Below, one piece after another: positions 3,725 through 27,364 of a stretch of 64,000 nt of DNA. Made by a program: the position numbers and the translations under genes. A model generated the notes under the pieces. It had not been told where the DNA came from, made no database searches, and saw nothing but the letters and a program-made list of their open reading frames with translations. The DNA lies in the NCBI GenBank assembly GCA_052386675.1, contig JBQTJX010000004.1, positions 71,330-135,329 of the forward strand. Direction: 5' to 3'. The stretch comes from Betaproteobacteria bacterium (lineage in GTDB: Bacteria; Pseudomonadota; Gammaproteobacteria; Burkholderiales; SG8-39). The first letter of the stretch is position 1; the number at the start of each line of letters is the position of its first letter.

Positions 3725-3737
3725 TCTTGCCCCCGCT

Positions 3738-4627: not shown

Positions 4628-4654
4628 GGCTGTCTCCTTGTTCTCGTCGCCGGG

Positions 4655-7645: not shown

Positions 7646-7656
7646 GGCGCGCCTCC

Positions 7657-7854
7657 TCAGACTTTCGCCGAGCGGTAGTAGTTGTTGACGTGCTCCGTGA
7701 CGTGGTAGCCCTGCGTCGAGCGCTTGTCCCCGTCCTTTGCAACCGTTTCGGGCGCGGGCCTGGTCGCGACCGCGGCCGCAGCGGCAGCGGCGCCGCCTGC
7801 GCCGAGCGTCACGAGAAAAGTCCTGCGGGAAAGCCTGGTTTTTTTGTCGCTCAT
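7657..7854 (-). CDS. Formate-dehydrogenase-region Tat-target small protein
   Basis: 65 aa with SRRTFLVTLGAGGAAAA twin-arginine signal, directly upstream of the alpha subunit. AGGAGA SD. Family recalled from memory. Confidence 0.7.
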   Translation of the reverse strand: MSDKKTRLSRRTFLVTLGAGGAAAAAAAVATRPAPETVAKDGDKRSTQGYHVTEHVNNYYRSAKV

Positions 7855-7936
7855 CGGTCGTCTCCTCTTGTGCCGTCCACGTTCCTGCTCAGCCCTCGCA
7901 CCAATTCGGGGCCCGGCTTATGAAAACCTGTGCAAA

Positions 7937-7955
7937 ATTACCTGTCTATTACCTG
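7937..7955 (-). promoter_or_regulatory. Two direct ATTACCTG repeats spaced 11 bp apart (CAGGTAAT in gene sense) in the AT-rich fdh upstream region
   Basis: ATTACCTG at 7937-7944 and 7948-7955, plus a third ACCTG at 7926-7930. They lie 83-100 nt upstream of the first fdh-operon start codon. Confidence 0.3.
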
Positions 7956-7973
7956 AACCACAAGAGAAAGTTG

Positions 7974-8006
7974 GCGCGAAGTCGGGATGCGTTCTTGACT
8001 TCGCGC
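7974..8006 (-). terminator. Candidate terminator hairpin between the accessory operon and the fdh structural operon
   Basis: Perfect 10-bp stem GCGCGAAGTC/GACTTCGCGC with a 13-nt loop, 32 nt after the TorD-like stop. Followed in gene sense by CAACTTTCTCTT, a weak T tract. Confidence 0.35.
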
Positions 8007-8037
8007 TCGCAGTTGAGAGGCGTTCTCGACTGAGCGC

Positions 8038-8655
8038 TCAACCGATGTCGAATGCTTCGTTCTCAAGTTCGAAGAAGGCGCGCGCGAACCGGGCAGCAGA
8101 TCGGTAAAAACGCGCTTTCGGCGAAGCGCTTACCGCAGTGCAGAAGGCGGTTGCGCCGCGGTACACGAAGCGCTTGAAGAAAACCCTCTGTTCCTCAAGG
8201 CCTCTCTGCTGCACCGCAATAGCCATTCGCATCACTTCGCACATCGCCGCGATGTGGTCTTCCGGTTCATGCGCGGATTCGCGCCGCGCCAGTCCCCAGC
8301 GCTCGAGTTGCTGCTTCACGTCGACCAATGGCGTGTCGTTGGCGTGCGCCAGCACGTAATGCGAGAGGTACGGCGTGACCTCGGCCTTGCCGGTACCGAT
8401 GAACAGTTCGGTGTGCTCGTCCTCCAGCTGCACCGGGAATGCCTTGCGGCAGGCGTCCATCATCTCGCGCCAGGCGTCGGCGATCTCCGATGGCGAGGTG
8501 TCGAATGGCTCTGCATTGAGCAGCTCGCCCAGCAGCTGCGCATCCGGCGCCTGGTAGAACAGCCGCGCGATGAGGCCGTAGAAATTGGCGCGCGCCCGGT
8601 CCTCTTCGTCCAGGGACACCTGGCCTGCGGCAATAAGCGTCGAATCCTGGCTCAT
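8038..8655 (-). CDS. TorD/DmsD-family redox-enzyme maturation chaperone-like protein
   Basis: 205 aa. ATG 8655 overlaps the upstream stop (ATGA). Sequence ...ANFYGLIARLFYQAPDAQLL...EHTELFIGTG...PYLSHY... matches the TorD-like pattern. Confidence 0.7.
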   Translation of the reverse strand: MSQDSTLIAAGQVSLDEEDRARANFYGLIARLFYQAPDAQLLGELLNAEPFDTSPSEIADAWREMMDACRKAFPVQLEDEHTELFIGTGKAEVTPYLSHYVLAHANDTPLVDVKQQLERWGLARRESAHEPEDHIAAMCEVMRMAIAVQQRGLEEQRVFFKRFVYRGATAFCTAVSASPKARFYRSAARFARAFFELENEAFDIG

Positions 8656-10757
8656 GACCCCTTCGGATAATCCATGATCGAGGGCTCGTCCTTGGCGTTC
8701 ATCATGTCCACCACCCGGCAATCGGCACACATCTGCAGGCGCTTGAGCGCGCCGCCGCCCGCAAACATGGAATGCGCGCCCAGCTTGCCGGACATGTTTT
8801 CGATCATCCTGCGTGTGCCGAAGGGCGTGCCGCAGCGCACGCAGTTGAACGGCTCGGCCTCGTTCAGCGTCACCGCTTCCTTCGCCTGCGCGCCGAGCAG
8901 CAGTCGCGGCACCAGCCTGATGGCGTCCTCCGGGCAGGTTTCCGCGCACAGGCCGCACTGCACGCAGTTGCGCTCGATGAAGCGCAGCGCCGGTGCCTCC
9001 TGCGCGTCCAGCAGCGCGGATTCCGGGCAGGCGCCGATGCAGGCCTTGCACAGCGTGCAGCTGTCCTTGTTGATCGCCAGCGTGCCGTAGGGCGCCCCGG
9101 CGGGCAGCGGGATCTCGTCCTTCGGCGCGGGCGCGTGCTTCGCGAGATGCTCGAAGGCGAAATCCAGGGTGCCGCGCTTCTCGGCCGCGAGGTTGAAGGT
9201 CGCGGGGATCTTCACCGAGGGCGCTGGCGCGAGGCTCCACAGCGCCTGCTCCAGCGCCGCCGCATCTTCCGCCTCGATCACCGAAAACCGGCTGCCCGGG
9301 TAGCCCAGCGCCGACACGATGGCCTGCGCGAACTCCATCTGCTTTCGCATCGCGGCGACATAGGCCGTCTCGCCCAGCCGAGGGGCGACCACGCAGACCT
9401 GGCTGGCGCCGTAGGCGAGCGCGCCCAAAAGGAAGTCCATCCCCACCGAGGCGGCATGGAAGGCCTCGAACGGAATCGCCCTCGCCGGCAGCCCCCGACC
9501 TGCGCCTTTCCCGCCCTGACCGCGCGAGCCGTGGCCCGCGCGCCGGCCGACTTCATGCAGCAGCTTGCGGCCCGCCTGCAGGTCGTGGACGAGCACGCAT
9601 GCGTCGCGCCCGCCCGCCTGCGCGTAGGTCGAGAGCATGGTCTTCAGCCGCGCCCCGATCTGCGCCATGCCCGGCACGACATGGGTCAGCGCGCCGGAAG
9701 GACAGACTGTCGCGCAGCCGCCGCAGCCCGCGCACAAGTGGGGCTCGACGCGCACGTGATCGCCATCGGGGCGGATGGCCCCGGTGGAACAGACGTCGAG
9801 GCATTTCGTGCAGCCGGTCTTGCCCGAGCGGCCATGAGCACAGATGCGCTCTCGGTAGTGCGTGAAGCGCGGCTTGGAGAACTCGCCCACCAGCGCGGCG
9901 AGCTTCTGCGCCGCGAGCGCCTGCTCAAGCGGATCGGCGCCCGGCGCGGCATATCCCTGCGGCAGGTCCGGCATCCGCAGCAGCGGCACGCGCGACAGGT
10001 CAAGGACGAGATCGAAGGTTTCCCGGTGCCGGGCCTCGGGCCGCGAGAAGTCGATCGCGCCAACCGCCCCGCAGGCCTTGACGCAGGCGCGATGCGACCT
10101 GCAGCGAGACAGGTCCACCTGGTAGGTGAAATCGATCGCGCCCTCGGGACAGGCGTTTACGCAGGCATTGCACCGCGTGCACAGCTCGAGGTCGACGGGG
10201 TTCTCCTGGCGCCATTCGATGTCGAATGCGCCGAGCCAGCCCGACAGGGCCAGCGGCTTGCCCGACCAGACCGGGTAGCGGCGCTCAGCCGGAAGCTCTC
10301 CTGCGCCTGCTTCGGTCAGCAGCACGCTGACCTGCAGCGACTGGCACAGACGCTCGGCCCAGTCGAGCGCGGCGCCCGCGGGGCCGACGATCAGCATCTG
10401 GCCCGAGGACTGGTAGTCCACCTGCGCCACCGGCTCGGGCTCGGGCAGCGCGGCGGTGGCGATCAGCGCCGCGATCTTGGGCTGCGCCGAGCGTCCTTCG
10501 GCGGACCATCCGGCCAACTCGCGGATGTTGACGAAGGAAATGCGCGCCTGCGAGTTCGCGCCCTCCGCCAGTTCTGCGAACAGCGGCGCTTCCTGGGTGC
10601 AGGCGACGATCAGGTCGGAATCCGACAGCGCCGCCTGGAACGCGCCCGCCTCCTTGCGGCAGAGCTCGGTGTGCAGCGCCACGCCGAGCGCTTTCGCGTC
10701 CACCGGGATGGTGCCGTTGCAGGAGCAGAGCTTAAGCGTCTTGTTTTGCAGCGCCAT
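8652..10757 (-). CDS. Large multi-cluster 4Fe-4S ferredoxin-domain protein (fdh-associated)
   Basis: 701 aa. N-terminal LCSCNGT motif. At least six CxxCxxCxxxC(P)-type motifs (CTRCNACVNACP, CTKCLDVCS, CAGCGGCATVCP, CTLCKACIGACP, CVQCGLCAETCP, CVRCG...CADC). Confidence 0.8.
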   Translation of the reverse strand: MALQNKTLKLCSCNGTIPVDAKALGVALHTELCRKEAGAFQAALSDSDLIVACTQEAPLFAELAEGANSQARISFVNIRELAGWSAEGRSAQPKIAALIATAALPEPEPVAQVDYQSSGQMLIVGPAGAALDWAERLCQSLQVSVLLTEAGAGELPAERRYPVWSGKPLALSGWLGAFDIEWRQENPVDLELCTRCNACVNACPEGAIDFTYQVDLSRCRSHRACVKACGAVGAIDFSRPEARHRETFDLVLDLSRVPLLRMPDLPQGYAAPGADPLEQALAAQKLAALVGEFSKPRFTHYRERICAHGRSGKTGCTKCLDVCSTGAIRPDGDHVRVEPHLCAGCGGCATVCPSGALTHVVPGMAQIGARLKTMLSTYAQAGGRDACVLVHDLQAGRKLLHEVGRRAGHGSRGQGGKGAGRGLPARAIPFEAFHAASVGMDFLLGALAYGASQVCVVAPRLGETAYVAAMRKQMEFAQAIVSALGYPGSRFSVIEAEDAAALEQALWSLAPAPSVKIPATFNLAAEKRGTLDFAFEHLAKHAPAPKDEIPLPAGAPYGTLAINKDSCTLCKACIGACPESALLDAQEAPALRFIERNCVQCGLCAETCPEDAIRLVPRLLLGAQAKEAVTLNEAEPFNCVRCGTPFGTRRMIENMSGKLGAHSMFAGGGALKRLQMCADCRVVDMMNAKDEPSIMDYPKGS

Positions 10758-11687: not shown

Positions 11688-11733
11688 TCGCGCGACTATA
11701 CCCTCTGCTATGATTTTGCGGCGAAAAGCACCA

Positions 11734-12803
<1,070 letters not shown>

Positions 12804-12813
12804 GCGCAAGCTG

Positions 12814-13668
12814 GTGGCAGCGGCATCCCGTCCGGTCCTCACTGACGCCGCGCGCCCGGCCACCTTCGAGGTCGAGGCGATCAACGAGCGCGGCGAGTCG
12901 GTGCCGACCTCCATCGCGGGCGAACACCCGCTTACCCTGTACCTGGACAAGCGCGAGCTGGTGACGCTGATGACGCTGGGCCACGCGCCCGAGGCGCTGG
13001 TGATCGGCTACCTGCGCAATCAGCGCCTGGTCGATTCCATCGCCGACATCAAGGCGGTGCAGGTGGACTGGGAAACCGATTCGGCCGCGGTCACCACCTC
13101 CGGCAAGGTGAAGGACGTGCTGAAGAAGACCCGCAAGCGCACCGTCACCACCGGCTGCGGCCAGGGCACGGTGTTCGGCGACCTGATGGACGAGATCGAC
13201 AAGCTGAGCCTGCGCGACGACGTGCGCCTCGCCGACAGCCAGCTGTTCGACCTGGTGGAGAAAGTGCGCAAGTACGAAACCATCTACAAGCAGGCGGGCG
13301 CGGTGCACGGCTGCGCCCTCGCCGCGGTCGCGGGACCCGCATCGATCAAGATCCTGATGTTCGTCGAGGATGTCGGCCGCCACAACGCGGTGGATGCCAT
13401 CGCCGGCAGGATGTGGCTGGATGGCATCGATGGCTCGGACAAGATCTTCTACACCACCGGTCGGCTCACCTCGGAGATGGTGATCAAGTGCGCGCAGATG
13501 GGCATTCCGTTCCTGGTCTCGCGCTCGGGCCTGACCCAGATGGGCCACGACATCGCGCGCCGCGTCGGACTCACCATGCTCGGGCGCGCGAGCGGCCGGC
13601 ACTACCTCGCCTTCACCGGCCAGCACCGGCTGCTGCGCACTGCGCCGCAGGCCACCGCGCTGGCCTGA
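12814..13668 (+). CDS. fdhD: Formate dehydrogenase accessory sulfurtransferase FdhD
   Basis: TTGCGQGTVFG, GAVHGCALA, EDVGRHNAVDAI and SRSGLTQMG motifs. No ATG after the moaA stop, so GTG 12814 was chosen and the start is uncertain. Confidence 0.8.
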   Translation: MAAASRPVLTDAARPATFEVEAINERGESVPTSIAGEHPLTLYLDKRELVTLMTLGHAPEALVIGYLRNQRLVDSIADIKAVQVDWETDSAAVTTSGKVKDVLKKTRKRTVTTGCGQGTVFGDLMDEIDKLSLRDDVRLADSQLFDLVEKVRKYETIYKQAGAVHGCALAAVAGPASIKILMFVEDVGRHNAVDAIAGRMWLDGIDGSDKIFYTTGRLTSEMVIKCAQMGIPFLVSRSGLTQMGHDIARRVGLTMLGRASGRHYLAFTGQHRLLRTAPQATALA

Positions 13669-13678
13669 TTCCGCCTCC

Positions 13679-14620
13679 ATGCTGCCGCAGCTGCCAGCCG
13701 CCCAGGCCGCCGCCTTGGCCTGCGAAACAGTCGCCGACTGGTGGCCGCGCCACCGCGCCATTGCCGCGGAGCACCCGGACCCGATCCACCAGGCGATCGT
13801 CGGCGGTTTCGTCGCCGACCGCGTCGGCTGGGCATTCGCCTCCGGATACCAGGCCGCGCTGCGCGCGCTGGTGCCCGACCTGCCGGCGGACCGCATCTGC
13901 GCGCTGTGCGTCACCGAGGAGGATGGCAACTCGCCCAAGGCAATCAAGTCCACGCTCCGGCGCAACGGCTCGGGCCTGATCCTCGACGGCGCCAAGCGCT
14001 GGACCACGCTCGGGCCGGACGGAGGGCTGTTCCTTGTGGCGGCACGCGATGCCGATGCTCAGGGCGAGCGCCCGTCGCTGAAGGTTGCGCGAGTCGCGTC
14101 CGGAGCGGCAGGCGTCACTGTCGAGAAGATGCCCCCGACCCGCTTCGTGCCCGAGGTTCCGCATGCGCGCCTGAAGTTCGAAGGCGTGCGCGTGGAGGAA
14201 TCGGCGCTCCTGCCCGGGGACGGCTACGACCAGTATGTGAAGCGCTTCCGCACTGTGGAGGACATCCACGTCCAGGCCGCGGTGCTGTCCTACCTGATGC
14301 GCGAGGCGCAGCGGCTGTCCTGGCCGGAAGGCTGGATCGAGCGTCTGTCGGCGCTGCTGGCGGCGCTGGGCAAGATCGCGGACATGCCTGCGGAGAACGC
14401 CGAGACGCATATATCGCTCGCGGGCGCGCTCGCCATCGGCAGCGACCTGATCGGGGAAGCGGAGGCGTTCTGGATGAAGTCGGCCGCCGACCCGGCGGCG
14501 CTCAGGTGGGGGCGCGACCGGGAATTGCTCAAGGTCGCGAGCGGCGCGCGGGCGCAGCGCACCAGGCGCGCCTGGGAGCGCCTGCGCGGCTTACGTCGGG
14601 CAAATGTTACCGATCGGTAA
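13679..14620 (+). CDS. Acyl-CoA dehydrogenase-like family protein (short form)
   Basis: 313 aa. ...LILDGAKRWTTLGPDGGLFLVAAR... and ...LLPGDGY... resemble the ACAD middle and C-terminal domains. The final codons and TAA stop lie inside the 26-bp palindrome. Confidence 0.55.
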   Translation: MLPQLPAAQAAALACETVADWWPRHRAIAAEHPDPIHQAIVGGFVADRVGWAFASGYQAALRALVPDLPADRICALCVTEEDGNSPKAIKSTLRRNGSGLILDGAKRWTTLGPDGGLFLVAARDADAQGERPSLKVARVASGAAGVTVEKMPPTRFVPEVPHARLKFEGVRVEESALLPGDGYDQYVKRFRTVEDIHVQAAVLSYLMREAQRLSWPEGWIERLSALLAALGKIADMPAENAETHISLAGALAIGSDLIGEAEAFWMKSAADPAALRWGRDRELLKVASGARAQRTRRAWERLRGLRRANVTDR

Positions 14621-14725: not shown

Positions 14726-16156
14726 ATGGCCGCCGAATTCCTGGTCCTCGTCAAACGCGAATGCGAGACCTGCCAGATGGTCGGGCCGGTGCTCGCCGGC
14801 CTGAAAGCACGCGCCCCCCTCACGCTCTTCTCGCAGGACGACCCCGCGTTCCCCGAAGAAACCGGCGGCGCGCTGGACGACCGGTCCCTGGCGCAGTCGT
14901 GGAAGCACAAGGTGGAGATCGTCCCGACGCTCATCCGACTCGAGGGCGGCCGCGAGGTCGCCCGCACCGAGGGCTGGAACCGCGCCGATTGGGCAAGGCT
15001 CACCGGCATCGCCGACATCGGCAAGGCGTTGCCGCCTTCGCGCCCCGGTTGCGGCTCCCTCACCATGGACCCGGGCATGCCGGAGCGCCTCGCCCTGAAA
15101 TTCGGCGACCTCAAGCTCGCCTCGCGCCCGATCGAAGTGGCCGAGCTGGACGACCCGCACGAGGTCGCCTACGACCGCGGCTGGTCGGACGGCCTGCCCG
15201 TCATCCCGCCCACCGACCTGCGCATCGCGAGGATGCTGGCAGGCACCACGCGCAAGCCGGACGAGGTCATCGGCCTGATCCCGCCCAACCTGGTCGAGTG
15301 CACCATCGAGAAAGCAGCCATCAATGCGGTGATGGCCGGCTGCCGGCCGGAGTACTTCCCGGTGGTGCTGGCGGCAATCGAGGCCGCGCTCAAGCCGGAG
15401 TTCTCGATGCACGGCCTGCTGGCGACGCTGTGGTTCTCCGGCCCGGTGGTGATCGTCAACGGACCGGTGACGAAGCGCATCGGCATGAACTGGGCGGGCA
15501 ACGCGCTCGGCCAGGGCAACCGCGCCAATGCCACCATCGGCAGAGCGCTGCAACTCGTGATCCGCAACGTGGGCGGCGGCCGGCCGCAGGAAATTGATCG
15601 ATCCATACTGGGAAACCCGGGCAAGTACACCTTCTGCTTCGCCGAGGACGAGACCGATCCGGAGTGGATGCCGCTCAACGTCGCGCGCGGCCATCGGCGC
15701 GGTTCATCCACCGTGACGCTGTTCCACGGCGACGGCGTGCACGCGGTCTGCGACCAGCGCTCGCGCGACCCGGAAAGCCTGTCGGGCTCGCTGGCGCTGA
15801 CGCTGTGGTCGGTGTGCCACCCCAAGCTCGCGCAGTGGTCGCATGCGATCCTCGTGCTTTCGCCCGACCATTACGACATCTTCAAGCAGGCCGGCTGGGG
15901 CAGGAAGGAAATCGAGGCCGGGCTGTGGCAGGCGCTCAAGCGCCCGGCGAAGGACCTGGTGCAGGGCGCCGGCGGCGTCGCCGAGGGCCTCGATCCGTCG
16001 CGCGCGGACGAGATCGTGGACAAGTTCCATCCCGGCGGACTGCTTGTGGTGCGCGCCGGGGCGAGCGGCGGGCTCTTTTCCGCCGTCATCGGTGGCTGGT
16101 CCGCCCAGCGCCGCCATACCGAAGTTCAAGTCGTATCAAAGGAGATCGGGACATGA
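14726..16156 (+). CDS. Thioredoxin-like (CxxC) domain fused to a ~370-aa domain of unknown function
   Basis: MAAEFLVLVKRECETCQMVGPVL...VEIVPTLI is Trx-fold-like with a CETC motif. The remainder (…GWSDGLPVIPPT…AINAVMAGC…) I cannot assign. The stop overlaps the next ATG (ATGA). Confidence 0.65.
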   Translation: MAAEFLVLVKRECETCQMVGPVLAGLKARAPLTLFSQDDPAFPEETGGALDDRSLAQSWKHKVEIVPTLIRLEGGREVARTEGWNRADWARLTGIADIGKALPPSRPGCGSLTMDPGMPERLALKFGDLKLASRPIEVAELDDPHEVAYDRGWSDGLPVIPPTDLRIARMLAGTTRKPDEVIGLIPPNLVECTIEKAAINAVMAGCRPEYFPVVLAAIEAALKPEFSMHGLLATLWFSGPVVIVNGPVTKRIGMNWAGNALGQGNRANATIGRALQLVIRNVGGGRPQEIDRSILGNPGKYTFCFAEDETDPEWMPLNVARGHRRGSSTVTLFHGDGVHAVCDQRSRDPESLSGSLALTLWSVCHPKLAQWSHAILVLSPDHYDIFKQAGWGRKEIEAGLWQALKRPAKDLVQGAGGVAEGLDPSRADEIVDKFHPGGLLVVRAGASGGLFSAVIGGWSAQRRHTEVQVVSKEIGT

Positions 16157-16686
16157 CGCAGGACGGCTACGTAATGCGCGACCCGACCGCGGAAACCGCG
16201 GCGGCGCAGCGCGAAAGGCTGGCGCCACCGCCGGACCTCTCCAAGGCCGCCATCGGGCTGCTCTGCATCTCGAAGGAGCGCAGCGAGGAGTTCCTCGACA
16301 CGCTCGCCGAGCGGCTGGGCGCGCGCGGACTCGAGGTGCTGCGCTTCGCCAAGCCCACGCACACCAAGCCCGCGCCGGAAGCGGTGCTCGCGGACATCGT
16401 CGAGCGCTGTGACGTGGTGGTGGAAGGGCTCGCCGACTGAGGTTCCTGTACGTCGTGCAGTTTGCATGACCTGCAGAATCTCGACCGGCGCGGCATCCCG
16501 GGATGCGGCGTGGCCACCGAGGCCTTCCGCCAGGCGGCGGACGCGCAGATGAAGTCGCTCGGCTTCGCCGCCGGGCTGGTGTGGGTGCCGCATCCGGTGC
16601 AGAACCGGACGCGCGCCGAACTGGTGGCGCTGGCGGACGAAGCGCTGCCGAAAATCCTCGCCCTGATCGAGCGCAAGGCGGCCTGA
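16153..16686 (+). CDS. Candidate UGSC-family selenoprotein (177 aa, Sec at codon 96 encoded by TGA 16438-16440)
   Basis: AAGGAGA SD 8 nt before ATG 16153. ...VVVEGLAD-TGA-GSCTSCSLHDLQNL... continues in the same frame to TGA 16684-16686. The downstream half has no SD of its own. Confidence 0.65.
16438..16440 (+). other. In-frame UGA, proposed selenocysteine codon
   Basis: This single TGA separates two same-frame ORFs (15664..16440 and 16462..16686 in the ORF track). It is followed by GGT TCC TGT, giving U-G-S-C. Confidence 0.6.
16452..16485 (+). promoter_or_regulatory. Candidate bacterial SECIS hairpin
   Basis: GTCG-TGCAG-(TTTGCATGAC loop)-CTGCA-(GAATCT bulge)-CGAC, starting 12 nt after the UGA. 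Folded by eye only. Confidence 0.3.
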
Positions 16687-16696
16687 GCCGACCGGA

Positions 16697-17920
16697 TCAG
16701 ATCGCGCCGGTCCGCCTCAGATCCTCGATCTCGCCCGGCGCGAGCCCGATCCAGTCGCGCAGGATTTCCCCGGTGTGCGCGCCCAGCGCCGGGCCAGCCG
16801 AGTCGATGCGACCCGGCGTGGCCTCCAGCCGCGGCACGACGTTGGGCAGCGCCAGGTCGCGTTCGCCAGGCAATCTGGGCTCCGGGATGAACGCGATGTT
16901 CTGTCTCGCCGCGTACTGCGGATCCGAGAATATTTCGTCGATGGCGTAGACCGGCCCGCAGGGCACTTCGCCGCGGCTGCACAGGTCCAGCAGCGCTTCG
17001 CGGTCGTGCCGACCCGTCCACTCCGTCACCGCGGCATCCACGGTTGCGCGTTCGGCTTCGCGCTGCGCGAGCGTGCCCCAGCGGCCCTCGCCTGCCCATT
17101 CCGGATGGCCCATGGCCGCGGCCAGGCGCGCGAAGATCTTGTCGCTGGTGCAGGCGATCGCGATCCAGCGCCCGTCCTTCGTCGGGTAATGGCTGTGCGG
17201 CACCACGTTGACCGTGCCCGCGCCCATGCGCTGGCGGACGGTGCCGCTGTGCTGGAACGCGGGCGCCAGCTCATCGAGGATCCGGAACACCGATTCGTAG
17301 AGCCCTATGTCCACCACCTGTCCGGCGCCGCTGCGGTCGCGCTCGCGCAAGGCCATCAGCGCGCCCATCGCGCCATACATGCCCGAAAGGTAGTCGGGCA
17401 GCGTCGCCGAGCCGGGCGTCACTGGTGGCCGGTCCGGATCGCCGGCGAGGAAGGAAATGCCGCCGAAGGCATTGGCGATGCGGCCGAACCCGGGCCGCGG
17501 GCTGTAGGGCCCGGTCTGTCCGTAGGCGGAGATCCGGACCATGACCAGGCGCGGGTTGCGCGCCTTCATCGCCTCCCAGCCGAGGCCCCACTTTTCCAGC
17601 GTCCCGGGCTGGAAGTTCTCCACCAGCACATCTGCCTTCGCAGCCAGGCGCAGGAGCAGTTCCGCGCCCGCCGGATTCTTCAGGTCGATGGTGACCGATT
17701 TCTTGTTGCGCGCTTCCGACAACCACACCAGCGAATCGCCGCAGTTCGTGGGCGTGCCGAAATGGCGCGTCGGATCGCCGGTGCCCGGCATCTCGACCTT
17801 GACCACCTCGGCGCCGAACTCGGCGAGGAACGTGGCGCAGTACGGCGCGGCGATGAAGGTGCCGCAATCGAGCACCCGCACCCCGTCCAGCGGCCGCGGC
17901 GCTCCGCTCGCGCGCGGCAC
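16697..17920 (-). CDS. Family III CoA-transferase (CaiB/BaiF-like)
   Basis: GTG 17920 start. PLDGVRVLDCGTFIAAPYCATFLAEFGAEVVKVE...DVLVENFQPGTLEKWGLGW...VRISAYGQTGPY... are classic family III motifs. Confidence 0.9.
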   Translation of the reverse strand: MPRASGAPRPLDGVRVLDCGTFIAAPYCATFLAEFGAEVVKVEMPGTGDPTRHFGTPTNCGDSLVWLSEARNKKSVTIDLKNPAGAELLLRLAAKADVLVENFQPGTLEKWGLGWEAMKARNPRLVMVRISAYGQTGPYSPRPGFGRIANAFGGISFLAGDPDRPPVTPGSATLPDYLSGMYGAMGALMALRERDRSGAGQVVDIGLYESVFRILDELAPAFQHSGTVRQRMGAGTVNVVPHSHYPTKDGRWIAIACTSDKIFARLAAAMGHPEWAGEGRWGTLAQREAERATVDAAVTEWTGRHDREALLDLCSRGEVPCGPVYAIDEIFSDPQYAARQNIAFIPEPRLPGERDLALPNVVPRLEATPGRIDSAGPALGAHTGEILRDWIGLAPGEIEDLRRTGAI

Positions 17921-20120: not shown

Positions 20121-21047
20121 ATGCTGATTCGTGCAGTTCTCGCGCTCCTGTTCTTCGCCGGCCTGACCATTGGTGGCGCCATCGCCCAGCCCTTCAACGA
20201 GGGCTACCGCAAGTGCGAGAAGTGCCACGAGGCGGAGGTCGACGTCTGGAAGAAAACCAGGCATTTCAAGGGCTTCCAGGAGATCCACAAGAGCGACAAG
20301 GCGAAGAAGATCCTCGCCGCAGCGGGTGGCGCCACCAGCATGCGCGCCAACGCGAACTGCGTGATGTGCCACTTCACCGAAACCAAGGCCTCGGCCGCGG
20401 GCAAGCCCCAGGTGTCCTCCGGGCCGTCCTGCGAAAGCTGCCACGGTCCGTCCTCGGACTGGCGCGACGTCCACAATTTCTACGGCGACGGCATCGACGA
20501 CCCGAAAAAGGAACCGGCGGCGAAGCGCGACAAGCGCCATGCCGATGCCCGCAAGGCCGGGATGATCTGGTCCTTCATGACCTATGACATCGCCGCGAAT
20601 TGCATGGAGTGCCACGGCCTGGCGAATCCGAAGCTGAAGCCGGACGTGCTGGCGAAGATGCTCGATGCGGGACACCCCGGCGAGCCCGAATTCGAGCTGG
20701 TCGCCCATTCCCAGGGCTCGGTCCGCCATCGCTACTACCCGCCGAACGTCACCACCAACGCCGAGATGACCCCGGCAGAGCTGTCCCGCCTTTATGTCAT
20801 CGGCCAGGCTGCCAAGCTGGTGTCGGCAACCGCCGCCGGTGCCGGCGGCAGCGCGCCATTCACCGCGATGCAGAAGAAGCGCGCGCAGGACGCGCGCGCG
20901 GCGCTGCAGCCGGTGGCCGACGTGCCGGAAGTGAAGGCGGTGCTGGACAAGCCCAGCGCGGACGCGGGACGCAAGCTCGCCGAAGCGCTCAAGGGCAAGG
21001 ACCTGTCGGCGAAGGTGAAGCTCCCGGCCAAGAGCAGCTACAAGTAA
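20121..21047 (+). CDS. Secreted tetrahaem cytochrome c
   Basis: Signal peptide MLIRAVLALLFFAGLTIGGAIAQ. Four CxxCH motifs (CEKCH, CVMCH, CESCH, CMECH). GGGGGA SD. Confidence 0.8.
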   Translation: MLIRAVLALLFFAGLTIGGAIAQPFNEGYRKCEKCHEAEVDVWKKTRHFKGFQEIHKSDKAKKILAAAGGATSMRANANCVMCHFTETKASAAGKPQVSSGPSCESCHGPSSDWRDVHNFYGDGIDDPKKEPAAKRDKRHADARKAGMIWSFMTYDIAANCMECHGLANPKLKPDVLAKMLDAGHPGEPEFELVAHSQGSVRHRYYPPNVTTNAEMTPAELSRLYVIGQAAKLVSATAAGAGGSAPFTAMQKKRAQDARAALQPVADVPEVKAVLDKPSADAGRKLAEALKGKDLSAKVKLPAKSSYK

Positions 21048-21071
21048 TCCGGCGGCCGGGCGGGTCGCGGC

Positions 21072-22793
21072 ATGAGCGAGCTCCAGGTCCTGCAGCGCCC
21101 GAAGCGCTGGGATACGCCTTTTGACGGCGCGATGTCCGAGCAGCATGTCGACGAACTGCTCGCGCGCCCCGAGTTCGCGACCATCGACGCCAGCAAGTTC
21201 CCGGCCTCGGCGCCGTTGCGTGGCATCGTGCGCAACGACTGCCGCATCGTGCACTTCCAGCCCGGCGACATCCTGGTGCGCGACGGCGATTACGGCAATT
21301 CCGCGTTCCTTGTCCTCTCCGGCACGGTGCGGGTGGTCCTGCCCCCTGGCCTGCCGCAGCACCTGCTCGGGCGCTCGGTCGAGGCCAAGACTTCCGCGCT
21401 GGACTCCCTCCTGCAGTTGTTCCGCCAGTCGAAGACGCCCGAGACCCGTGACACGTCGCGCTACCACGCCGGCGAGTCGCGCGGGGCCAGCGAGCAGCAC
21501 CATTCGCTGCTCGATCCGGACGGCATCGGCCAGCTGTTCGGTGCCGGCGTCGATCCGCGGGCGGACAAGCGCCGCGTACCCCAGCTCGCGGCAACGTGGA
21601 AGACCGCGATCCTGCCGCCGGGCACGCTGTTCGGGGAAATCGCCGCGCTTGGCAGGGTGCAGCGATCGGCCACCGTGTATGCCGAATCGGAATGCACTGC
21701 GCTCGAGATGCGCTGGCAGGCGTTGCGCGACATCAAGAACCGCGACGAGACCTGGCGCACGAAGATCGAACAGAGCTACCGCGACAACCAGCTGCGCATC
21801 CACCTGGCCGAGCACCCGCTGCTCGCCGGGCTTGACCCGAAGTCGCTGCAAAAACTGGCCGCCGCCACGCTGTTCGAAACCTACGGCTCGTTCGAGTGGT
21901 ACCTGGAATTCAAGCGCGGCAAGGGCAGCGAGCGGCCGGCGCCTCCGATCGAACCCGCGGTCGCGCAGCAGGGCGACTACCCGGATGGCCTGCTGCTGGT
22001 GACCGGCGGCTTTGGCCGCGTCTCCATGCAGCTCGGCCAGGGCTCGCGCACCCTGACCTACCTGCGTAACGGCGATCACTACGGCCTGGACGAGCTGTAC
22101 GAGGCCTGGAAGAGCGGCCACGACTGCCCCTACGAGACCAGCCTGACGGCGCTGGGCTACCTGCACGTGCTCCGGATTCCCTACTCCGCTCTTGCGGAAC
22201 TGGTGTTCCCGAAGCTGCGCCCGCCCGCGGCGCGCCTGATTGACGCCTCGTCGCGGCCGATCGCGCAGGACGCCTTCCTCGAGTGGGCGGTCGAGGAGCG
22301 CTACATCAACGGCACGCGCACCATGGTCATCGACCTCGAGGCCTGCGTGCGCTGCGACGACTGCGTGCGCGCCTGCGCGGACACGCACGGCGGCAATCCG
22401 CGCTTCGTGCGCGCCGGCAACACCTTCGGCAAGTGGCTGGTGGCGAACGCGTGCATGCACTGCGTCGACCCGGTGTGCATGATCGGCTGCCCGACAGGCG
22501 CGATCCACCGCACCGTGCAGGGCGGCGCGGTGGTGATCAATGACCTCACCTGCATCGGCTGCGGCACCTGCGCCAACTCCTGCCCGTACGACAACATCCG
22601 CCTGGTGCCGATCCGCGAGCTGGACGGCCGCGCGCTGCTCGACCCGGCATCCCAGGAGCCGATCCTCAAGGCCACCAAGTGCGACCTGTGCTTCTCCCTG
22701 CCCACCGGCCCTTCATGCGAGCGTGCCTGCCCGCACGGGGCGCTGCGCCGCGCCGACCTTCAGTCGCTGGTGGCGCAGGCGGCGGAGCTCTAG
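21072..22793 (+). CDS. Tandem cyclic-nucleotide-binding domains fused to an NrfC/HybA-like four-cluster Fe-S domain
   Basis: cNMP phosphate-binding-cassette-like FGEIAALGRVQRSATVYA, then a second degenerate cNMP domain. This is followed by CVRCDDCVRAC, CMHCVDPVCMIGCP, CIGCGTCANSCP and CDLC...CERACP. Confidence 0.8.
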   Translation: MSELQVLQRPKRWDTPFDGAMSEQHVDELLARPEFATIDASKFPASAPLRGIVRNDCRIVHFQPGDILVRDGDYGNSAFLVLSGTVRVVLPPGLPQHLLGRSVEAKTSALDSLLQLFRQSKTPETRDTSRYHAGESRGASEQHHSLLDPDGIGQLFGAGVDPRADKRRVPQLAATWKTAILPPGTLFGEIAALGRVQRSATVYAESECTALEMRWQALRDIKNRDETWRTKIEQSYRDNQLRIHLAEHPLLAGLDPKSLQKLAAATLFETYGSFEWYLEFKRGKGSERPAPPIEPAVAQQGDYPDGLLLVTGGFGRVSMQLGQGSRTLTYLRNGDHYGLDELYEAWKSGHDCPYETSLTALGYLHVLRIPYSALAELVFPKLRPPAARLIDASSRPIAQDAFLEWAVEERYINGTRTMVIDLEACVRCDDCVRACADTHGGNPRFVRAGNTFGKWLVANACMHCVDPVCMIGCPTGAIHRTVQGGAVVINDLTCIGCGTCANSCPYDNIRLVPIRELDGRALLDPASQEPILKATKCDLCFSLPTGPSCERACPHGALRRADLQSLVAQAAEL

Positions 22794-22800
22794 GCCCGGC

Positions 22801-23673
22801 ATGCGCGAGACGCTTCGGCTGGCGTCGGAACTGTGGCGCGACGCCCTTGCCTACGCGCCGGCGCGCCCGGCCCGCGGCCTGTTGACGGCGTGGTTCGCGG
22901 CGATCGCGGCCTGGATCCTGGTCAGCCTCCTTGCCTGGCACACCGAGCGCAGCCTGGGCAACGCCTCGCTGGTGACCGGCTATGCACTGATGGCGGCGAT
23001 GCTGTTCCTGGGCAGCTTCGGCCTGCGCAAGCGCGTCCTGGTGCTGCCGCTGGGCACGGCGCGCGCCTGGATGCGGGCGCACCTGGTCGTCAGTGCGATT
23101 TGCGTGCCGCTGTACTTCCAGCACGCCGGCAGCCTCTGGCCGGGCGGCGTCTACGAGCAGGCGCTCGCCCTGGCGTTCTACGGCGTGGCGCTCACCGGGC
23201 TCGCGGGCTACGTCCTCGAGCGCCTGCTGCCCAAGCGTCTCACCGACCTCGACAGCGAGATCGTCTACGAGCGCATTCCGCACGAGATCGCCGAGCTGCG
23301 CGAGCGCGCCGAGGCGGTGGTGGTACAGGCGATGCAGCAACTGGGTTCGGACACGCTGGGCCGCTACTACCACGAGTCGCTGGACTGGTATTTCTGGAAG
23401 CCGCGTTTCCTGGTCAGCCACCTGCTGGGCGGCCGGCGCGCAGCGCGCTGGATCGGTGGCCACATCTCCGCACTCGCCCGCTACCTCAGCGAGCCGGAGC
23501 GCGCCTACCTCGACCAGATCGAGGCGCTGGCAACACGCAAAAGCCACCTGGACGCCCACTTGGTCATGCAGGGCGCGCTGAAGTACTGGCTGTTCCTGCA
23601 CGTCCCGCTGGCCGCTGTCCTGATCCTGCTGGTGCTCTGGCACCTGCTCCTGGTGAACATCTACGCACTGTGA
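22801..23673 (+). CDS. Integral membrane protein (4 N-terminal TM, helical soluble region, C-terminal TM), unknown function
   Basis: 290 aa. Hydrophobic segments carry His residues (AWHTE, RAHLVVSA, YFQH, FLHVP, LWHLL). 7 nt after the preceding gene. Confidence 0.55.
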   Translation: MRETLRLASELWRDALAYAPARPARGLLTAWFAAIAAWILVSLLAWHTERSLGNASLVTGYALMAAMLFLGSFGLRKRVLVLPLGTARAWMRAHLVVSAICVPLYFQHAGSLWPGGVYEQALALAFYGVALTGLAGYVLERLLPKRLTDLDSEIVYERIPHEIAELRERAEAVVVQAMQQLGSDTLGRYYHESLDWYFWKPRFLVSHLLGGRRAARWIGGHISALARYLSEPERAYLDQIEALATRKSHLDAHLVMQGALKYWLFLHVPLAAVLILLVLWHLLLVNIYAL

Positions 23674-23697
23674 CGCCATGCCGAACCTGAGAGACGC

Positions 23698-27359: not shown

Positions 27360-27364
27360 CGCCG

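What the first reader, a model, noticed from the sequence alone, without database searches (positions are those of the whole stretch)
14726..16156. Thioredoxin-like CxxC domain fused to a large unassigned domain, translationally coupled to the selenoprotein
- The 476-aa protein begins with a Trx-fold-like segment (LVLVKRECETCQMVGPVL...VEIVPTLI).
- It continues with about 370 aa that I cannot assign (...RGWSDGLPVIPPTDLRIARML...AINAVMAGCRPEYFP...GNRANATIGRALQLV...).
- Its stop overlaps the selenoprotein ATG (ATGA at 16153-16156), which implies stoichiometric co-expression.
- A CxxC partner next to a UxxC protein suggests a dedicated thiol/selenol redox relay acting on the unknown domain's substrate.
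Basis: partly seen in the sequence, partly recalled or inferred. Interest (0 to 1): 0.65.

Follow-up and report, generated by a model that had tools for sequence, protein, structure and literature searches.

The report
Thioredoxin-fused partner of UGSC selenoprotein
This gene fuses a thioredoxin-like domain to a large, widespread domain that matches no described family or solved structure, and it is almost always found next to (or fused with) the orphan UGSC selenoprotein, so the two probably form a thioredoxin-driven selenium enzyme of unknown chemistry that can now be tested.

Summary
ORF 14726-16156 (+) encodes 476 aa, and its TGA overlaps the ATG of a genuine UGSC selenoprotein gene (16153-16686; Sec codon at 16438; conserved SECIS-like hairpin).

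- **N-terminal domain.** Residues 1-95 are a thioredoxin fold by structure prediction, with an invariant C-x-T-C.
- **Domain 'X'.** Residues ~135-476 have no Pfam, NCBIfam or PDB sequence match. A high-confidence model (pLDDT 95.9) has no convincing fold match (TM <=0.30). The family is nevertheless very large (5,763 clusters at 50% identity).
- **Link to UGSC.** 77 of 80 species-level genomes from many phyla carry UGSC just downstream. In the reverse test, 67-70 of 72 UGSC genes have X upstream. X-UGSC fusions occur in both orders.
- **Other redox partners.** X is also fused to AhpC/ResA-like and FtrB-like modules. In cultured bacteria the split form is trxB-trxA-X-UGSC (Arthrobacter), and trxB is also in the operon in Roseovarius and Variovorax.
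- **UGSC itself.** It shares only the short Sec motif region (UxxCxxC) with selenoprotein B of the glycine and related reductases.

Best reading: a two-subunit, thioredoxin-fed (seleno)cysteine reductase whose substrate site lies in X (near-invariant Cys206). The substrate is unknown; it may be an organic acid or a CoA ester.

The parts
14726..16156 (+). Gene for the 476-aa Trx-X fusion protein (stop codon included)
   Evidence: ORF and translation. Full-length homologues at 69-94% identity. 80 species-level orthologues at 49-85% identity.
14726..15010 (+). N-terminal thioredoxin-fold domain (res 1-95)
   Evidence: AF2 model with pLDDT ~90-96 in this part. Foldseek matches ResA and thioredoxins at probability 1.0, TM (target) 0.5-0.63. 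HMM scores are sub-threshold.
14762..14773 (+). C13-E-T-C16 redox motif at the start of helix 14-18
   Evidence: Read from the sequence. C13, T15 and C16 are invariant in 79 orthologues; position 14 is mostly Pro.
15044..15058 (+). Linker motif P107-G-C109-G-S111
   Evidence: P107 and G108 are invariant. C109 is present in all 75 orthologues that cover the position. The motif also occurs in AhpC-fused forms and is absent from stand-alone X. Its role as a shuttle or resolving Cys is an inference.
15128..16153 (+). Domain 'X' (res ~135-476): a large alpha/beta domain with no family assignment
   Evidence: No Pfam, NCBIfam or PDB hit. AF2 pLDDT 95.9, pTM 0.93. Best PDB fold match has TM 0.26-0.30. 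It occurs stand-alone, in tandem, and fused to UGSC, AhpC or FtrB modules.
15341..15343 (+). Cys206 codon (motif NAVMAGC), the candidate catalytic or redox Cys of X, between two helices at the N-cap of helix 208-221
   Evidence: Present in 135/141 family representatives and in all 75 orthologues that cover the position. Position taken from DSSP on the model.
15635..15637 (+). Cys304 codon (motif C-x-A-E307)
   Evidence: Present in 119/137 representatives; E307 in 131/136. Its loss is not coupled to loss of C206.
15869..15871 (+). His382 codon (motif P-D-H)
   Evidence: Present in 102/112 representatives and in all 75 orthologues that cover the position.
16138..16143 (+). Shine-Dalgarno AAGGAG for the UGSC gene, inside the 3' end of the Trx-X gene
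   Evidence: Read from the sequence; it ends 9 nt before ATG 16153.
16153..16156 (+). ATGA stop/start overlap (translational coupling)
   Evidence: A start codon giving the same 4-nt overlap is available in 35 of 76 orthologous loci.
16153..16686 (+). UGSC-family selenoprotein gene (177 aa with Sec96)
   Evidence: PF24696 E 2.7e-37; NF041046 127.9 bits. Translation.
16438..16440 (+). In-frame TGA read as Sec, in D-U-G-S-C-T-S-C
   Evidence: The same position is TGA in 75 of 77 orthologous loci (TGC in 2), and TGA in 74 of 80 metagenome loci.
16453..16469 (+). SECIS-like hairpin, starting 13 nt after the TGA codon
   Evidence: The window sequence folds at -25.6 kcal/mol, z -2.8, with 0/200 shuffles as good. 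Six conserved pairs in 39 sequences: one compensatory C-G>U-A, one G-C/G-U.
16697..17899 (-). Family III (CaiB-type) CoA-transferase, convergent neighbour; possible but unproven functional associate
   Evidence: PF02515 E 2e-119. A CoA-transferase recurs near X/UGSC in about 12 of 80 genomes. It lies between X and UGSC in L171 and in the clusters of Roseovarius and three haloarchaea.

Best explanation
The 476-aa protein is the large subunit of a two-subunit, thioredoxin-dependent (seleno)cysteine oxidoreductase. The small subunit is the UGSC selenoprotein encoded immediately downstream.

Proposed electron path:
1. NAD(P)H reduces thioredoxin reductase.
2. Thioredoxin reductase reduces a thioredoxin module. 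Here that module is built in as the N-terminal C-E-T-C domain, possibly with help from linker Cys109.
3. The thioredoxin module reduces the U-G-S-C-T-S-C centre of UGSC.
4. UGSC acts at the active site of the new domain 'X', which is built around the near-invariant Cys206 together with Arg266, Asn268, Arg273, Glu307 and His382.
5. A small substrate is reduced there, and a selenenyl-sulfide (or disulfide) is left behind for the relay to re-reduce.

In logic this resembles the Stickland glycine/proline reductases (selenoprotein B plus a substrate-binding subunit plus TrxB/TrxA). X, however, is unrelated to their pyruvoyl subunit.

The substrate is unknown. Recurrent neighbours hint at an organic (di)carboxylate or its CoA thioester.

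Shown: the domain architecture, the gene coupling, the conserved pairing and fusions, and the trxB/trxA linkage.
Inferred: the physical complex (about 0.9), the direction of electron flow (about 0.7), catalysis at Cys206 with Sec as partner (about 0.45), and the substrate class (about 0.3).
For: **Pairing with UGSC**
- 77/80 species-level genomes from Alpha-, Beta-, Gamma- and Deltaproteobacteria, Actinomycetota, Chloroflexota, Myxococcota, Nitrospirales and others have UGSC on the same strand downstream. In 76 the gap is <=220 nt.
- In the reverse direction, 67 of 72 informative UGSC-anchored metagenome loci have X directly upstream, and 3 more have it further upstream.
- Seven sampled stand-alone or FtrB-fused X genes all have UGSC in the same operon, in various gene orders.
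- All ten annotated loci on plasmids of cultured organisms have UGSC adjacent or fused.
- X and UGSC are fused in both orders: P0227 (UGSC then X) and P0157 (X then UGSC, the ORF call ending at the Sec codon).

**Redox input**
- X carries alternative N-terminal thiol/selenol modules: Redoxin/AhpC in 7 of 58 members, ResA-like in 6, and SelL-related, WAxxUGC and FtrB double-selenoprotein-like in others.
- Arthrobacter has trxB-trxA(WCGPC)-X-UGSC, with the trxA stop overlapping the X start.
- Roseovarius has X-UGSC-trxB. Variovorax SRS16 has trxB-TctC-SDR-X-UGSC. V. boronicumulans has a TrxR-like gene, TctC, then a UGSC-X fusion.
- The N-terminal domain is a Trx fold with invariant C13, T15, C16, P67 and T68.

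**UGSC as the Sec catalytic unit**
- The motif is U-x-x-C-x-x-C.
- 11 of 15 UGSC members hit the GrdB model TIGR01917 (best E 3.8e-5), 8 hit GrdF, 6 hit TIGR01918 and 3 hit GrdH. For the window's own UGSC, the only member whose matched stretch is reported, the match lies over the Sec region.
- Sec strongly predominates over Cys: 75:2 and 74:6 here, and 255:21 in GOS (PMC2398784).

**X as the substrate-site carrier**
- Near-invariant residues across 150 representatives: D155, T193, C206, R266, N268, R273, E307, H382.
- Tandem X-X proteins keep these residues and have no UGSC gene next to them.

**Co-transcription**
- Metatranscriptome contigs of a relative about 90% identical span the junction between the two genes.
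Against: - There is no biochemical or structural evidence for a complex.
- X shows no similarity to GrdE/PrdA, and no GrdA, GrdC or GrdD genes were seen in the neighbourhood.
- The UGSC-GrdB similarity is far below the family cutoffs, and the one matched stretch reported covers only about 40 residues. A profile-versus-single-GrdB-like-read comparison aligned the Sec/Cys positions but was not significant.
- Some X proteins lack UGSC nearby: L033 and the tandem X-X protein P0286.
- Some UGSC-X fusions have lost the U/C residues: Vibrio, Sporomusa and P0227. The pair can therefore exist without redox chemistry at that motif.
- Six of 141 family representatives lack Cys206.
- The CoA-transferase association is moderate, and these genes are abundant paralogues in such genomes.
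- The Trx domain scores below every curated HMM threshold.
Confidence: 0.5

Rival explanations
1. X is a metal- or Fe-S-dependent hydro-lyase-like enzyme that catalyses a non-redox reaction on an organic acid. UGSC and the Trx module only protect, repair or load its Cys/His site.
For: - The best (weak) fold matches are to class I fumarate hydratase, at E 4e-4 and probability 0.7. The Fe-S L-serine dehydratase beta domain also appears, at a non-significant E of 0.67.
- Conserved C206, C304, H382 and E307 could be metal ligands.
- Degenerate UGSC-X fusions that lack the redox residues sit next to aconitase X genes.
- Tandem X-X proteins occur without UGSC.
Against: - TM-scores are only 0.26-0.30, and no Fumerase or other Pfam hit appears even at E<=5 in 58 members.
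- Only two Cys are widely conserved, and their losses are uncorrelated: 17 representatives have C206 only and 5 have C304 only.
- A repair role does not explain a near-obligate, often fused, mostly Sec-containing partner with trxB in the operon.
Confidence: 0.15
2. The pair handles selenium or sulfur itself, for example trafficking or detoxifying selenide, persulfide or selenocompounds, rather than reducing an organic substrate.
For: - selA and selB lie directly downstream of UGSC in about 10 genomes, and selB is nearby in Paracoccus.
- DsrE, TusA and a cysteine desulfurase are close by in Paracoccus.
- The Arthrobacter UGSC carries a NifU-like domain.
- There are weak fold matches to the N-terminal domain of selenophosphate synthetase.
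Against: - The selA/selB linkage is explained simply by UGSC being a selenoprotein.
- Haloarchaea and many bacteria use Cys-form UGSC with X and have no Sec codon there.
- Neighbours are mostly organic-acid/CoA metabolism and carboxylate transporters, not S/Se metabolism.
- The SelD fold matches are insignificant (E 0.03-0.3).
Confidence: 0.1
3. X is a non-catalytic scaffold or maturation factor needed to fold, stabilise or present UGSC, and UGSC alone is the enzyme.
For: - The co-occurrence is obligate and fusions exist.
- UGSC is small (about 175 aa).
- The two genes are translationally coupled.
Against: - X is very strongly conserved, at 50-85% identity across phyla. Its near-invariant polar and Cys residues are typical of an active site.
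- X persists in tandem X-X proteins and in fusions where the UGSC motif is degenerate.
Confidence: 0.08
4. It is an ordinary 'thioredoxin family protein', as annotation pipelines call it, with an incidental C-terminal extension, and the adjacency to UGSC is coincidental.
For: NCBI names several homologues 'thioredoxin family protein'.
Against: - The extension is three quarters of the protein and is the conserved core of a family with 5,763 representative clusters.
- The adjacency holds in both directions, across many bacterial phyla and in haloarchaea.
Confidence: 0.02

Closest known systems
Glycine/sarcosine/betaine/D-proline reductases (selenoprotein B GrdB/GrdF/GrdH/PrdB, with the pyruvoyl subunit GrdE/PrdA and TrxB/TrxA)
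   Same: - A small alpha/beta subunit carries Sec in a U-x-x-C-x-x-C motif. NCBIfam GrdB, GrdF, GrdH and TIGR01918 models hit UGSC members.
- A second, larger subunit is encoded next to it.
- Thioredoxin reductase and thioredoxin genes sit in the same operon in split versions; this is also typical of grd operons (established knowledge).
- Sec is strongly preferred over Cys.
   Different: - X has no detectable similarity to the pyruvoyl proproteins GrdE/PrdA.
- No GrdA, GrdC or GrdD genes were seen in the neighbourhood.
- UGSC is about 175 aa and scores 10-30 bits against a 602-bit cutoff.
- The hosts are mostly aerobic proteobacteria, actinobacteria and haloarchaea rather than amino-acid-fermenting anaerobes.
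UGSC-containing selenoprotein family (PF24696 / NF041046) and the 'UGSC/Unknown_1 fusion' of Zhang & Gladyshev 2008 (PMC2398784)
   Same: - The downstream gene is a bona fide member of the UGSC family.
[quoted passage not shown] UGSC fused to X is seen here in 6 of 58 representatives.
   Different: - The literature still lists UGSC as a protein of unknown function (2026 review, PMC13188914). The open full text searched describes no near-obligate operon partner, no Trx/TrxB linkage and no archaeal members.
- That Unknown_1 equals X could not be verified, because the figure is held only as an image.
Thioredoxin-fused Cys/Sec reductases such as Trx-MsrA-MsrB (PilB-type methionine sulfoxide reductases)
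   Same: A dedicated Trx-fold CxxC domain is fused to a reductase whose catalytic Cys (or Sec) is oxidised at each turnover. Stand-alone forms rely on free Trx/TrxR. This comparison rests on established knowledge and is an analogy only.
   Different: There is no sequence or fold relationship between X and MsrA or MsrB. X also needs a separate small (seleno)protein.
TlpA/ResA/CcmG-type thiol-disulfide oxidoreductases
   Same: The N-terminal domain has the same fold, and ResA is the best PDB match. In orthologues the C-[PE]-T-C motif is mostly C-P-T-C, which resembles the CcmG-type motif (from memory).
   Different: There is no signal peptide or membrane anchor: the CxxC starts at residue 13. 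The domain scores below all curated HMM thresholds and is fused to a cytoplasmic 340-aa domain.
Class I (Fe-S) fumarate hydratase, L-serine dehydratase and YjgF/Toblerone-fold proteins
   Same: These are the top Foldseek matches for X (E 4e-4 to 0.7), which suggests similar alpha/beta sub-modules.
   Different: TM is 0.16-0.30 and rmsd 11-19 A. There is no sequence-profile link and no three-Cys cluster signature.

Membership tests
Thioredoxin superfamily (N-terminal domain) | Thioredoxin fold (beta-alpha-beta-alpha-beta-beta-alpha core) | tested here: met
   AF2 pLDDT is about 90-96 for res 1-100. Foldseek matches ResA, TrxA and others at probability 1.0, TM (target) 0.5-0.63.
Thioredoxin superfamily (N-terminal domain) | CxxC at the N-terminus of helix 1, and a cis-Pro loop | tested here: met
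   C13-E-T-C16 precedes helix 14-18. C13, T15, C16, P67 and T68 are invariant in 79 orthologues. The cis conformation itself cannot be tested here.
Thioredoxin superfamily (N-terminal domain) | Score above the curated threshold of a Trx-family HMM | tested here: not met
   No Pfam hit. TIGR01068 scores 12.7 bits against a cutoff of 96.8.
Thioredoxin superfamily (N-terminal domain) | Thiol-disulfide exchange activity | not testable with these tools
   Needs a biochemical assay. Indirect support: the split operon trxB-trxA-X-UGSC.
UGSC family (downstream partner gene) | Profile match above the curated cutoff, spanning the U/C-G-S-C motif | tested here: met
   PF24696 scores 129 bits (cutoff 25). 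NF041046 scores 127.9 bits (cutoff 125).
UGSC family (downstream partner gene) | In-frame UGA with a downstream SECIS hairpin | tested here: met
   TGA at 16438. Hairpin at 16453-16469. TGA at the same position in 75 of 77 orthologues.
Glycine/sarcosine/betaine/D-proline reductase system | Selenoprotein B homologue above the family threshold (TIGR01917/TIGR01918/PF07355) | tested here: not met
   Only sub-threshold hits: best E 3.8e-5, and 10.3 bits against a 602-bit cutoff for the window's UGSC, whose matched stretch lies over the Sec region. No PF07355 hit.
Glycine/sarcosine/betaine/D-proline reductase system | U-x-x-C-x-x-C redox motif in the Sec subunit | tested here: met
   D-U-G-S-C-T-S-C in the window and in 75 orthologues.
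Glycine/sarcosine/betaine/D-proline reductase system | Pyruvoyl-forming proprotein subunit (GrdE/PrdA, PF09338) | tested here: not met
   58 X members give no hit to PF09338 or to GrdE/PrdA NCBIfam models even at E<=5-10. Cys206 lies between two helices, not at a self-cleavage turn.
Glycine/sarcosine/betaine/D-proline reductase system | Selenoprotein A (GrdA) and protein C (GrdC/GrdD) encoded with it | tested here: not met
   Clustering of neighbours over 160 loci found no such conserved genes.
Glycine/sarcosine/betaine/D-proline reductase system | Thioredoxin system encoded in the operon | tested here: met
   A fused Trx-like domain here. trxB with or without trxA in Arthrobacter, Roseovarius and Variovorax.
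Class I fumarate hydratase / Fe-S hydro-lyases | Global fold similarity (TM >=0.5) and three Cys cluster ligands | tested here: not met
   TM is 0.26-0.30. Only C206 and C304 are widely conserved, and they are lost independently. No Pfam Fumerase hit.
'Unknown_1' domain fused to UGSC (Zhang & Gladyshev 2008) | Sequence identity with the published Unknown_1 alignment | not testable with these tools
   Figure S1A is held only as an image. The description (a conserved unknown domain fused to UGSC, with conserved Cys) fits X.

The most novel reading that the evidence does not exclude
X plus UGSC is a previously undescribed class of thioredoxin-dependent (seleno)cysteine enzyme. It would have a new catalytic fold and be present in many bacterial phyla and in haloarchaea. 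It would be the main reason many aerobic aquatic and soil bacteria keep the Sec-decoding machinery, since selA and selB are often encoded right behind it. It would carry out a reductive step on an organic acid or acyl-CoA, chemistry so far known only from the Stickland reductases of anaerobes.
Probability: 0.35. Interest if true: 0.85.

Novelty: new variant of a known kind. Interest (0 to 1): 0.68.

Why it matters
UGSC is one of the most abundant prokaryotic selenoprotein families in aquatic metagenomes. It has been listed as 'function unknown' from its first description up to a 2026 review (PMC2398784, PMC13188914).

The work here shows three things:
- UGSC has a near-obligate partner domain with no family or fold assignment.
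- That partner is repeatedly wired to thioredoxin or thioredoxin reductase.
- Cys-only versions of the whole cassette exist in cultured Arthrobacter, Roseovarius, Variovorax and haloarchaea.

Together these turn an orphan into a system that can be expressed, purified, knocked out and solved without needing Sec insertion. If the reductase model is right, it extends Stickland-type selenium chemistry to aerobes and archaea. It also defines a large unannotated protein family (thousands of clusters), currently mislabelled 'thioredoxin family protein' or 'hypothetical'.

Tried and rejected
1. **Direct assignment of X.** Pfam, NCBIfam, PDB sequence searches (single sequence and profile) and Foldseek against PDB and BFVD all gave nothing convincing.
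2. **Internal repeats in X.** hhalign of sub-pieces and a self-comparison found none.
3. **X as a GrdE/PrdA-like pyruvoyl subunit.** Rejected. There is no profile hit, and the invariant Cys sits at a helix N-cap.
4. **X as an Fe-S hydro-lyase.** Kept only as a weak rival because of the low TM and the uncoupled Cys losses.
5. **Linkage to the window's own upstream genes** (MoaA, FdhD, ACAD-like). These neighbours are not conserved in any of the 80 orthologous loci.
6. **A universal third partner.** Clustering of neighbours over 80 and then 173 loci found only lineage-specific genes: selA/selB, thiolase, TctC, CoA-transferase and hydrolases.
7. **Whole-domain UGSC-GrdB homology.** hhalign against one GOS GrdB-like read aligned U with U, but the match was not significant.
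8. **The 2008 'Unknown_1' alignment.** It is not machine-readable.
9. **Expression evidence.** Only two metatranscriptomes contain a relative about 90% identical. Their contigs span the gene junction, but DNA carry-over cannot be excluded.
Full report
**1. The observation**

The + strand carries an ORF from ATG 14726 to TGA 16154-16156, encoding 476 aa. A longer reading from TTG 14624 is possible, but 41 full-length homologues start at the position of ATG 14726.

The stop overlaps the ATG of the next gene (ATGA, 16153-16156). A strong Shine-Dalgarno sequence (AAGGAG, 16138-16143) lies inside the end of the first gene.

The next gene (16153-16686) has an in-frame TGA at 16438-16440, in the context LAD-U-GSCTSC. 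It matches Pfam PF24696 'UGSC' (E 2.7e-37) and NCBIfam NF041046 above its curated cutoff, on both sides of the TGA. A hairpin starts 13 nt after the TGA codon. In the window it is more stable than all 200 shuffles, and it is conserved in 39 orthologues with one compensatory pair. The selenoprotein is therefore real, and the coupling is as described.

**2. What the 476-aa protein is made of**

Sequence profiles do not assign it. Pfam gives no hit, NCBIfam gives only a sub-threshold thioredoxin hit (E 0.11), and the PDB sequence search finds nothing.

- *N-terminal domain.* A model of the whole protein (pLDDT 80.7) gives residues 1-100 high confidence. Foldseek matches this part to ResA and thioredoxins at probability 1.0. 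It is a Trx fold, with C13-E-T-C16 at the start of helix 1 and a V-P67-T68 loop.
- *Domain X.* A second model covers residues 130-476 and was built on a diverse alignment. It is very confident (pLDDT 95.9, pTM 0.93).
  - Its best PDB matches are class I fumarate hydratase, Toblerone-fold hydrolases and YjgF-like proteins. They reach only TM 0.16-0.30.
  - BFVD gives nothing.
  - A family profile finds no PDB sequence.
  - No internal repeats were detected.

I call this domain X. No library of predicted cellular structures was available, so 'no known fold relative' applies to solved structures only.

**3. How big the family is, and its architectures**

The word-indexed search scored 8,000 candidates (its cap), all with E<=1e-3. 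The best 120 are 69-94% identical and about 474 aa long. Where they have a name at all, it is 'thioredoxin family protein' or 'hypothetical protein'. The exhaustive search of 50%-identity representatives found 5,763 clusters, 1,321 of them at E<=1e-30.

X occurs in several architectures:
- alone, at about 350 aa;
- in tandem, at about 710 aa;
- behind N-terminal modules, namely the divergent Trx-like domain seen here, Redoxin/AhpC/ResA-like domains, SelL-related and WAxxUGC-type domains, and an FtrB (ferredoxin-thioredoxin reductase beta) 'double selenoprotein'-like domain;
- fused to UGSC itself, in both orders.

Across 150 representatives the near-invariant residues of X are D155, P158, T193, C206 (135/141), R266, N268, R273, C304 (119/137), E307 and H382. 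C206 sits between two helices, at the N-cap of helix 208-221. That is a typical position for a reactive thiolate. Losses of C206 and C304 are not correlated, so they are not an obligatory disulfide or ligand pair.

In 79 Trx-fused orthologues from many phyla, C13, T15, C16, P67, T68, P107 and G108 are invariant. C109, C206, H229, E307 and H382 are present in every orthologue that covers the position, and C304 in all but one.

**4. Is the neighbourhood with UGSC conserved?**

*Forward test.* A scan of one genome per GTDB species returned 80 loci at 49-85% identity. The record titles name Alpha-, Beta-, Gamma- and Deltaproteobacteria, Actinomycetota, Chloroflexota, Myxococcota, Nitrospirales, Spirochaetaceae and Krumholzibacteriia.
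- 77 loci have a UGSC gene on the same strand downstream, and in 76 the gap is <=220 nt.
- Of the three without it, two are contigs that end within about 200 nt of the gene. Only L033 truly lacks it.
- The U position is TGA in 75 loci and TGC in 2.
- A 4-nt stop/start overlap like the window's is available in 35 of 76 loci.

*Reverse test.* 80 metagenome loci were anchored on UGSC.
- Of the 72 informative loci, 67 have X directly upstream, 3 have it further upstream and 2 lack it.
- Of the 38 complete X genes there, 37 carry the C-x-T-C extension.

*Distant members.* Seven sampled stand-alone or FtrB-fused X genes (33-41% identity) all have UGSC in the operon, in various orders. In one, a CoA-transferase is inserted between X and UGSC. 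A tandem X-X protein has none.

*Cultured organisms.* All ten annotated plasmid or chromid loci have UGSC adjacent or fused. This includes three haloarchaea, where the arrangement is X-UGSC(Cys)-X' or UGSC-X.

*Transcripts.* RNA-derived contigs from a relative about 90% identical span the junction between the two genes.

The pairing therefore holds in nearly every case, in both directions.

**5. Evidence for a redox relay**

Split versions of the window's fusion are the most telling.
- Arthrobacter sp. ERGS1:01 encodes trxB, then a canonical WCGPC trxA whose stop overlaps the start of X, then X, then UGSC.
- Roseovarius THAF8 encodes X-UGSC-trxB.
- Variovorax SRS16 encodes trxB-TctC-SDR-X-UGSC.
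- V. boronicumulans has a TrxR-like flavoprotein, then TctC, then a UGSC-X fusion.

Taken with the repeated fusion of X to other thiol/selenol modules, this argues that X/UGSC is a client of the thioredoxin system.

UGSC carries U-x-x-C-x-x-C. Eleven of 15 members hit the GrdB model (best E 3.8e-5), and fewer hit GrdF, GrdH and TIGR01918. For the window's own UGSC, the only member whose matched stretch is reported, the match lies over the Sec region. This is a local resemblance. The scores are far below family cutoffs, and a profile-to-single-sequence comparison was not significant.

Sec outnumbers Cys by 75:2 and 74:6 here, and by 255:21 in GOS (PMC2398784). Such a strong preference suggests that Sec takes a direct part in the chemistry.

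**6. Most likely mechanism**

I propose a two-subunit reductase.
1. Electrons flow from NAD(P)H through thioredoxin reductase to a thioredoxin module. Here that module is the fused C-E-T-C domain, possibly helped by the conserved linker Cys109.
2. They then pass to the U/C-G-S-C-T-S-C centre of UGSC.
3. That centre works with the X active site around Cys206 and the Arg/Asn/Glu/His cluster to reduce a bound small molecule. A selenenyl-sulfide is left behind, which the relay resolves.

What is shown: the architecture, the coupling, the conserved pairing, the fusions and the trxB/trxA linkage.

What is inferred, with my estimates:
- a physical complex: about 0.9;
- reductive direction of electron flow: about 0.7;
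- catalysis at C206 with Sec as its partner: about 0.45;
- the substrate class: about 0.3.

For the substrate the only leads are recurrent but lineage-specific neighbours:
- family III CoA-transferase, which is convergent in the window, within 6 kb in about 12 of 80 genomes, lies between X and UGSC in L171, and is in the clusters of Roseovarius and three haloarchaea;
- a CitE/HpcH CoA-ester lyase;
- HMG-CoA lyase;
- MaoC/ECH hydratases;
- TctC/TRAP/TAXI carboxylate transporters.

These point loosely to an organic (di)carboxylate or its CoA ester. Such genes are abundant paralogues in these genomes, and no background model could be computed.

**7. Rivals**

- *A metal or Fe-S hydro-lyase-like X with UGSC/Trx as protector (0.15).* Support comes from the weak fumarase-like fold hits and from degenerate UGSC-X fusions next to aconitase X genes. 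Against it are the low TM, the lack of a three-Cys signature, and the near-obligate, mostly Sec-containing partner with trxB.
- *Selenium or sulfur trafficking (0.10).* selA/selB lie directly behind UGSC in about 10 genomes, but this follows naturally from UGSC being a selenoprotein. Cys-only cassettes exist in organisms that do not decode Sec here.
- *X as a mere scaffold (0.08).* This fits poorly with its active-site-like conservation.
- *A generic thioredoxin with a chance neighbour (0.02).* Excluded by the conservation data.

**8. Comparison with what is known**

The downstream gene is a member of the UGSC family. The N-terminal domain belongs to the thioredoxin superfamily by fold and motif, but not by any curated HMM threshold.

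The system works like the glycine/proline reductases in three respects: a Sec subunit with UxxCxxC, an adjacent large subunit, and a Trx system in the operon. It is not a member of that family. The pyruvoyl subunit, GrdA and GrdC/D are absent, and selenoprotein B thresholds are not met.

The 2008 GOS paper mentions a 'UGSC/Unknown_1' fusion, which is probably this domain, but the figure is unreadable here. The open full text searched contains no functional study of UGSC or of its partner.

**9. Verdict**

The gene belongs to a very large family that is sequenced but has no functional annotation, so the gene itself is not new. The new points are:
- the partnership between X and UGSC is near-obligate;
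- the pair is wired to the thioredoxin system;
- the pairing extends to archaea;
- X has no family or fold assignment.

I rate it a new variant of a known kind (thioredoxin-dependent Cys/Sec reductases), with a substantial chance that the chemistry is new. Interest: 0.68.

Noticed in passing
L020, L024, L025, L027, L034, L036, L058, L063, L066, L075, L122 (downstream of UGSC): selA (Sec synthase) and selB (Sec elongation factor) lie directly behind the X-UGSC pair in about 10 genomes from Betaproteobacteria, Marinobacter and Acidimicrobiia. The pair looks like a cassette of one selenoprotein plus Sec-decoding genes, and UGSC may be the main Sec user there. There is no selA, selB or tRNA gene in the window itself.
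   Followed up: partly
window 2657-10754 (-), 11730-13665 (+): A formate-dehydrogenase-like molybdopterin oxidoreductase (4655-7642, 995 aa) has an Fe-S subunit (3983-4624), a cytochrome b (2657-3943) and a 700-aa poly-ferredoxin (8652-10754). MoaA and FdhD follow on the other strand. This cluster is not conserved next to X-UGSC in other genomes.
   Followed up: partly
window 13679-14620 (+): The gene directly upstream encodes a 313-aa protein that matches only the middle domain of acyl-CoA dehydrogenases (PF02770, E 5e-11). It may be a truncated or divergent ACAD-like protein. It is absent from the 80 orthologous loci.
   Followed up: no
window 20121-28876 (+): A cluster of multihaem cytochrome c genes (c554, c7, c3 and MtrC-like domains) lies with a cNMP-binding Fe-S protein downstream of the AraC regulator.
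   Followed up: no
L179 5368-7053 (Vibrio europaeus), L180 5329-7053 (Sporomusa termitida), P0227 (Actinophytocola): These UGSC-X fusion proteins have lost the redox residues of the UGSC part (M/G in place of U/C, and V/S/L in place of the second Cys). In Vibrio and Sporomusa they sit next to aconitase X plus DUF126 genes. They may be a non-redox offshoot of the family.
   Followed up: partly
L174 4381-7080 (Halalkalicoccus jeotgali), L185 4983-7645 (Halorientalis litorea): In these haloarchaea UGSC (Cys form) is flanked on both sides by hypothetical genes of X size (330-341 aa), in the arrangement X-UGSC-X'. tblastn reports two X-matching places in each record, but the identity of the second copy was not checked. 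A CoA transferase lies in the same cluster, and in Halorientalis a CitE/HpcH CoA-ester lyase as well.
   Followed up: partly
L171 623-5669: A family III CoA-transferase gene is inserted between X and the Sec-form UGSC. TctC and a second CoA-transferase follow. This is the tightest link seen between the pair and CoA metabolism.
   Followed up: no
L178 7042-7857 (Arthrobacter sp. ERGS1:01): The UGSC protein here carries an extra C-terminal NifU-like domain (PF01106).
   Followed up: no
window 16447-16470 and alignment A5: The codons for T-S-C-S-L-H-D after the Sec codon are conserved at synonymous positions across phyla (for example, Ser is almost always TCG). These codons overlap the SECIS hairpin, so the RNA constraint and the protein motif are superimposed.
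   Followed up: partly
L164 5001-7154 (P0286): A tandem X-X protein (717 aa) keeps the conserved Cys/Glu/His residues in both copies but has no UGSC gene nearby. A peptide/nickel-type ABC binding protein is encoded upstream.
   Followed up: no
L178 3713-4501 and L184 1853-2320: Genes annotated as 'phosphosulfolactate synthase' recur near X-UGSC in an Arthrobacter and in a Natrinema plasmid. 'Isocitrate lyase/PEP mutase family' and DUF6282 genes also recur, in two loci each.
   Followed up: no
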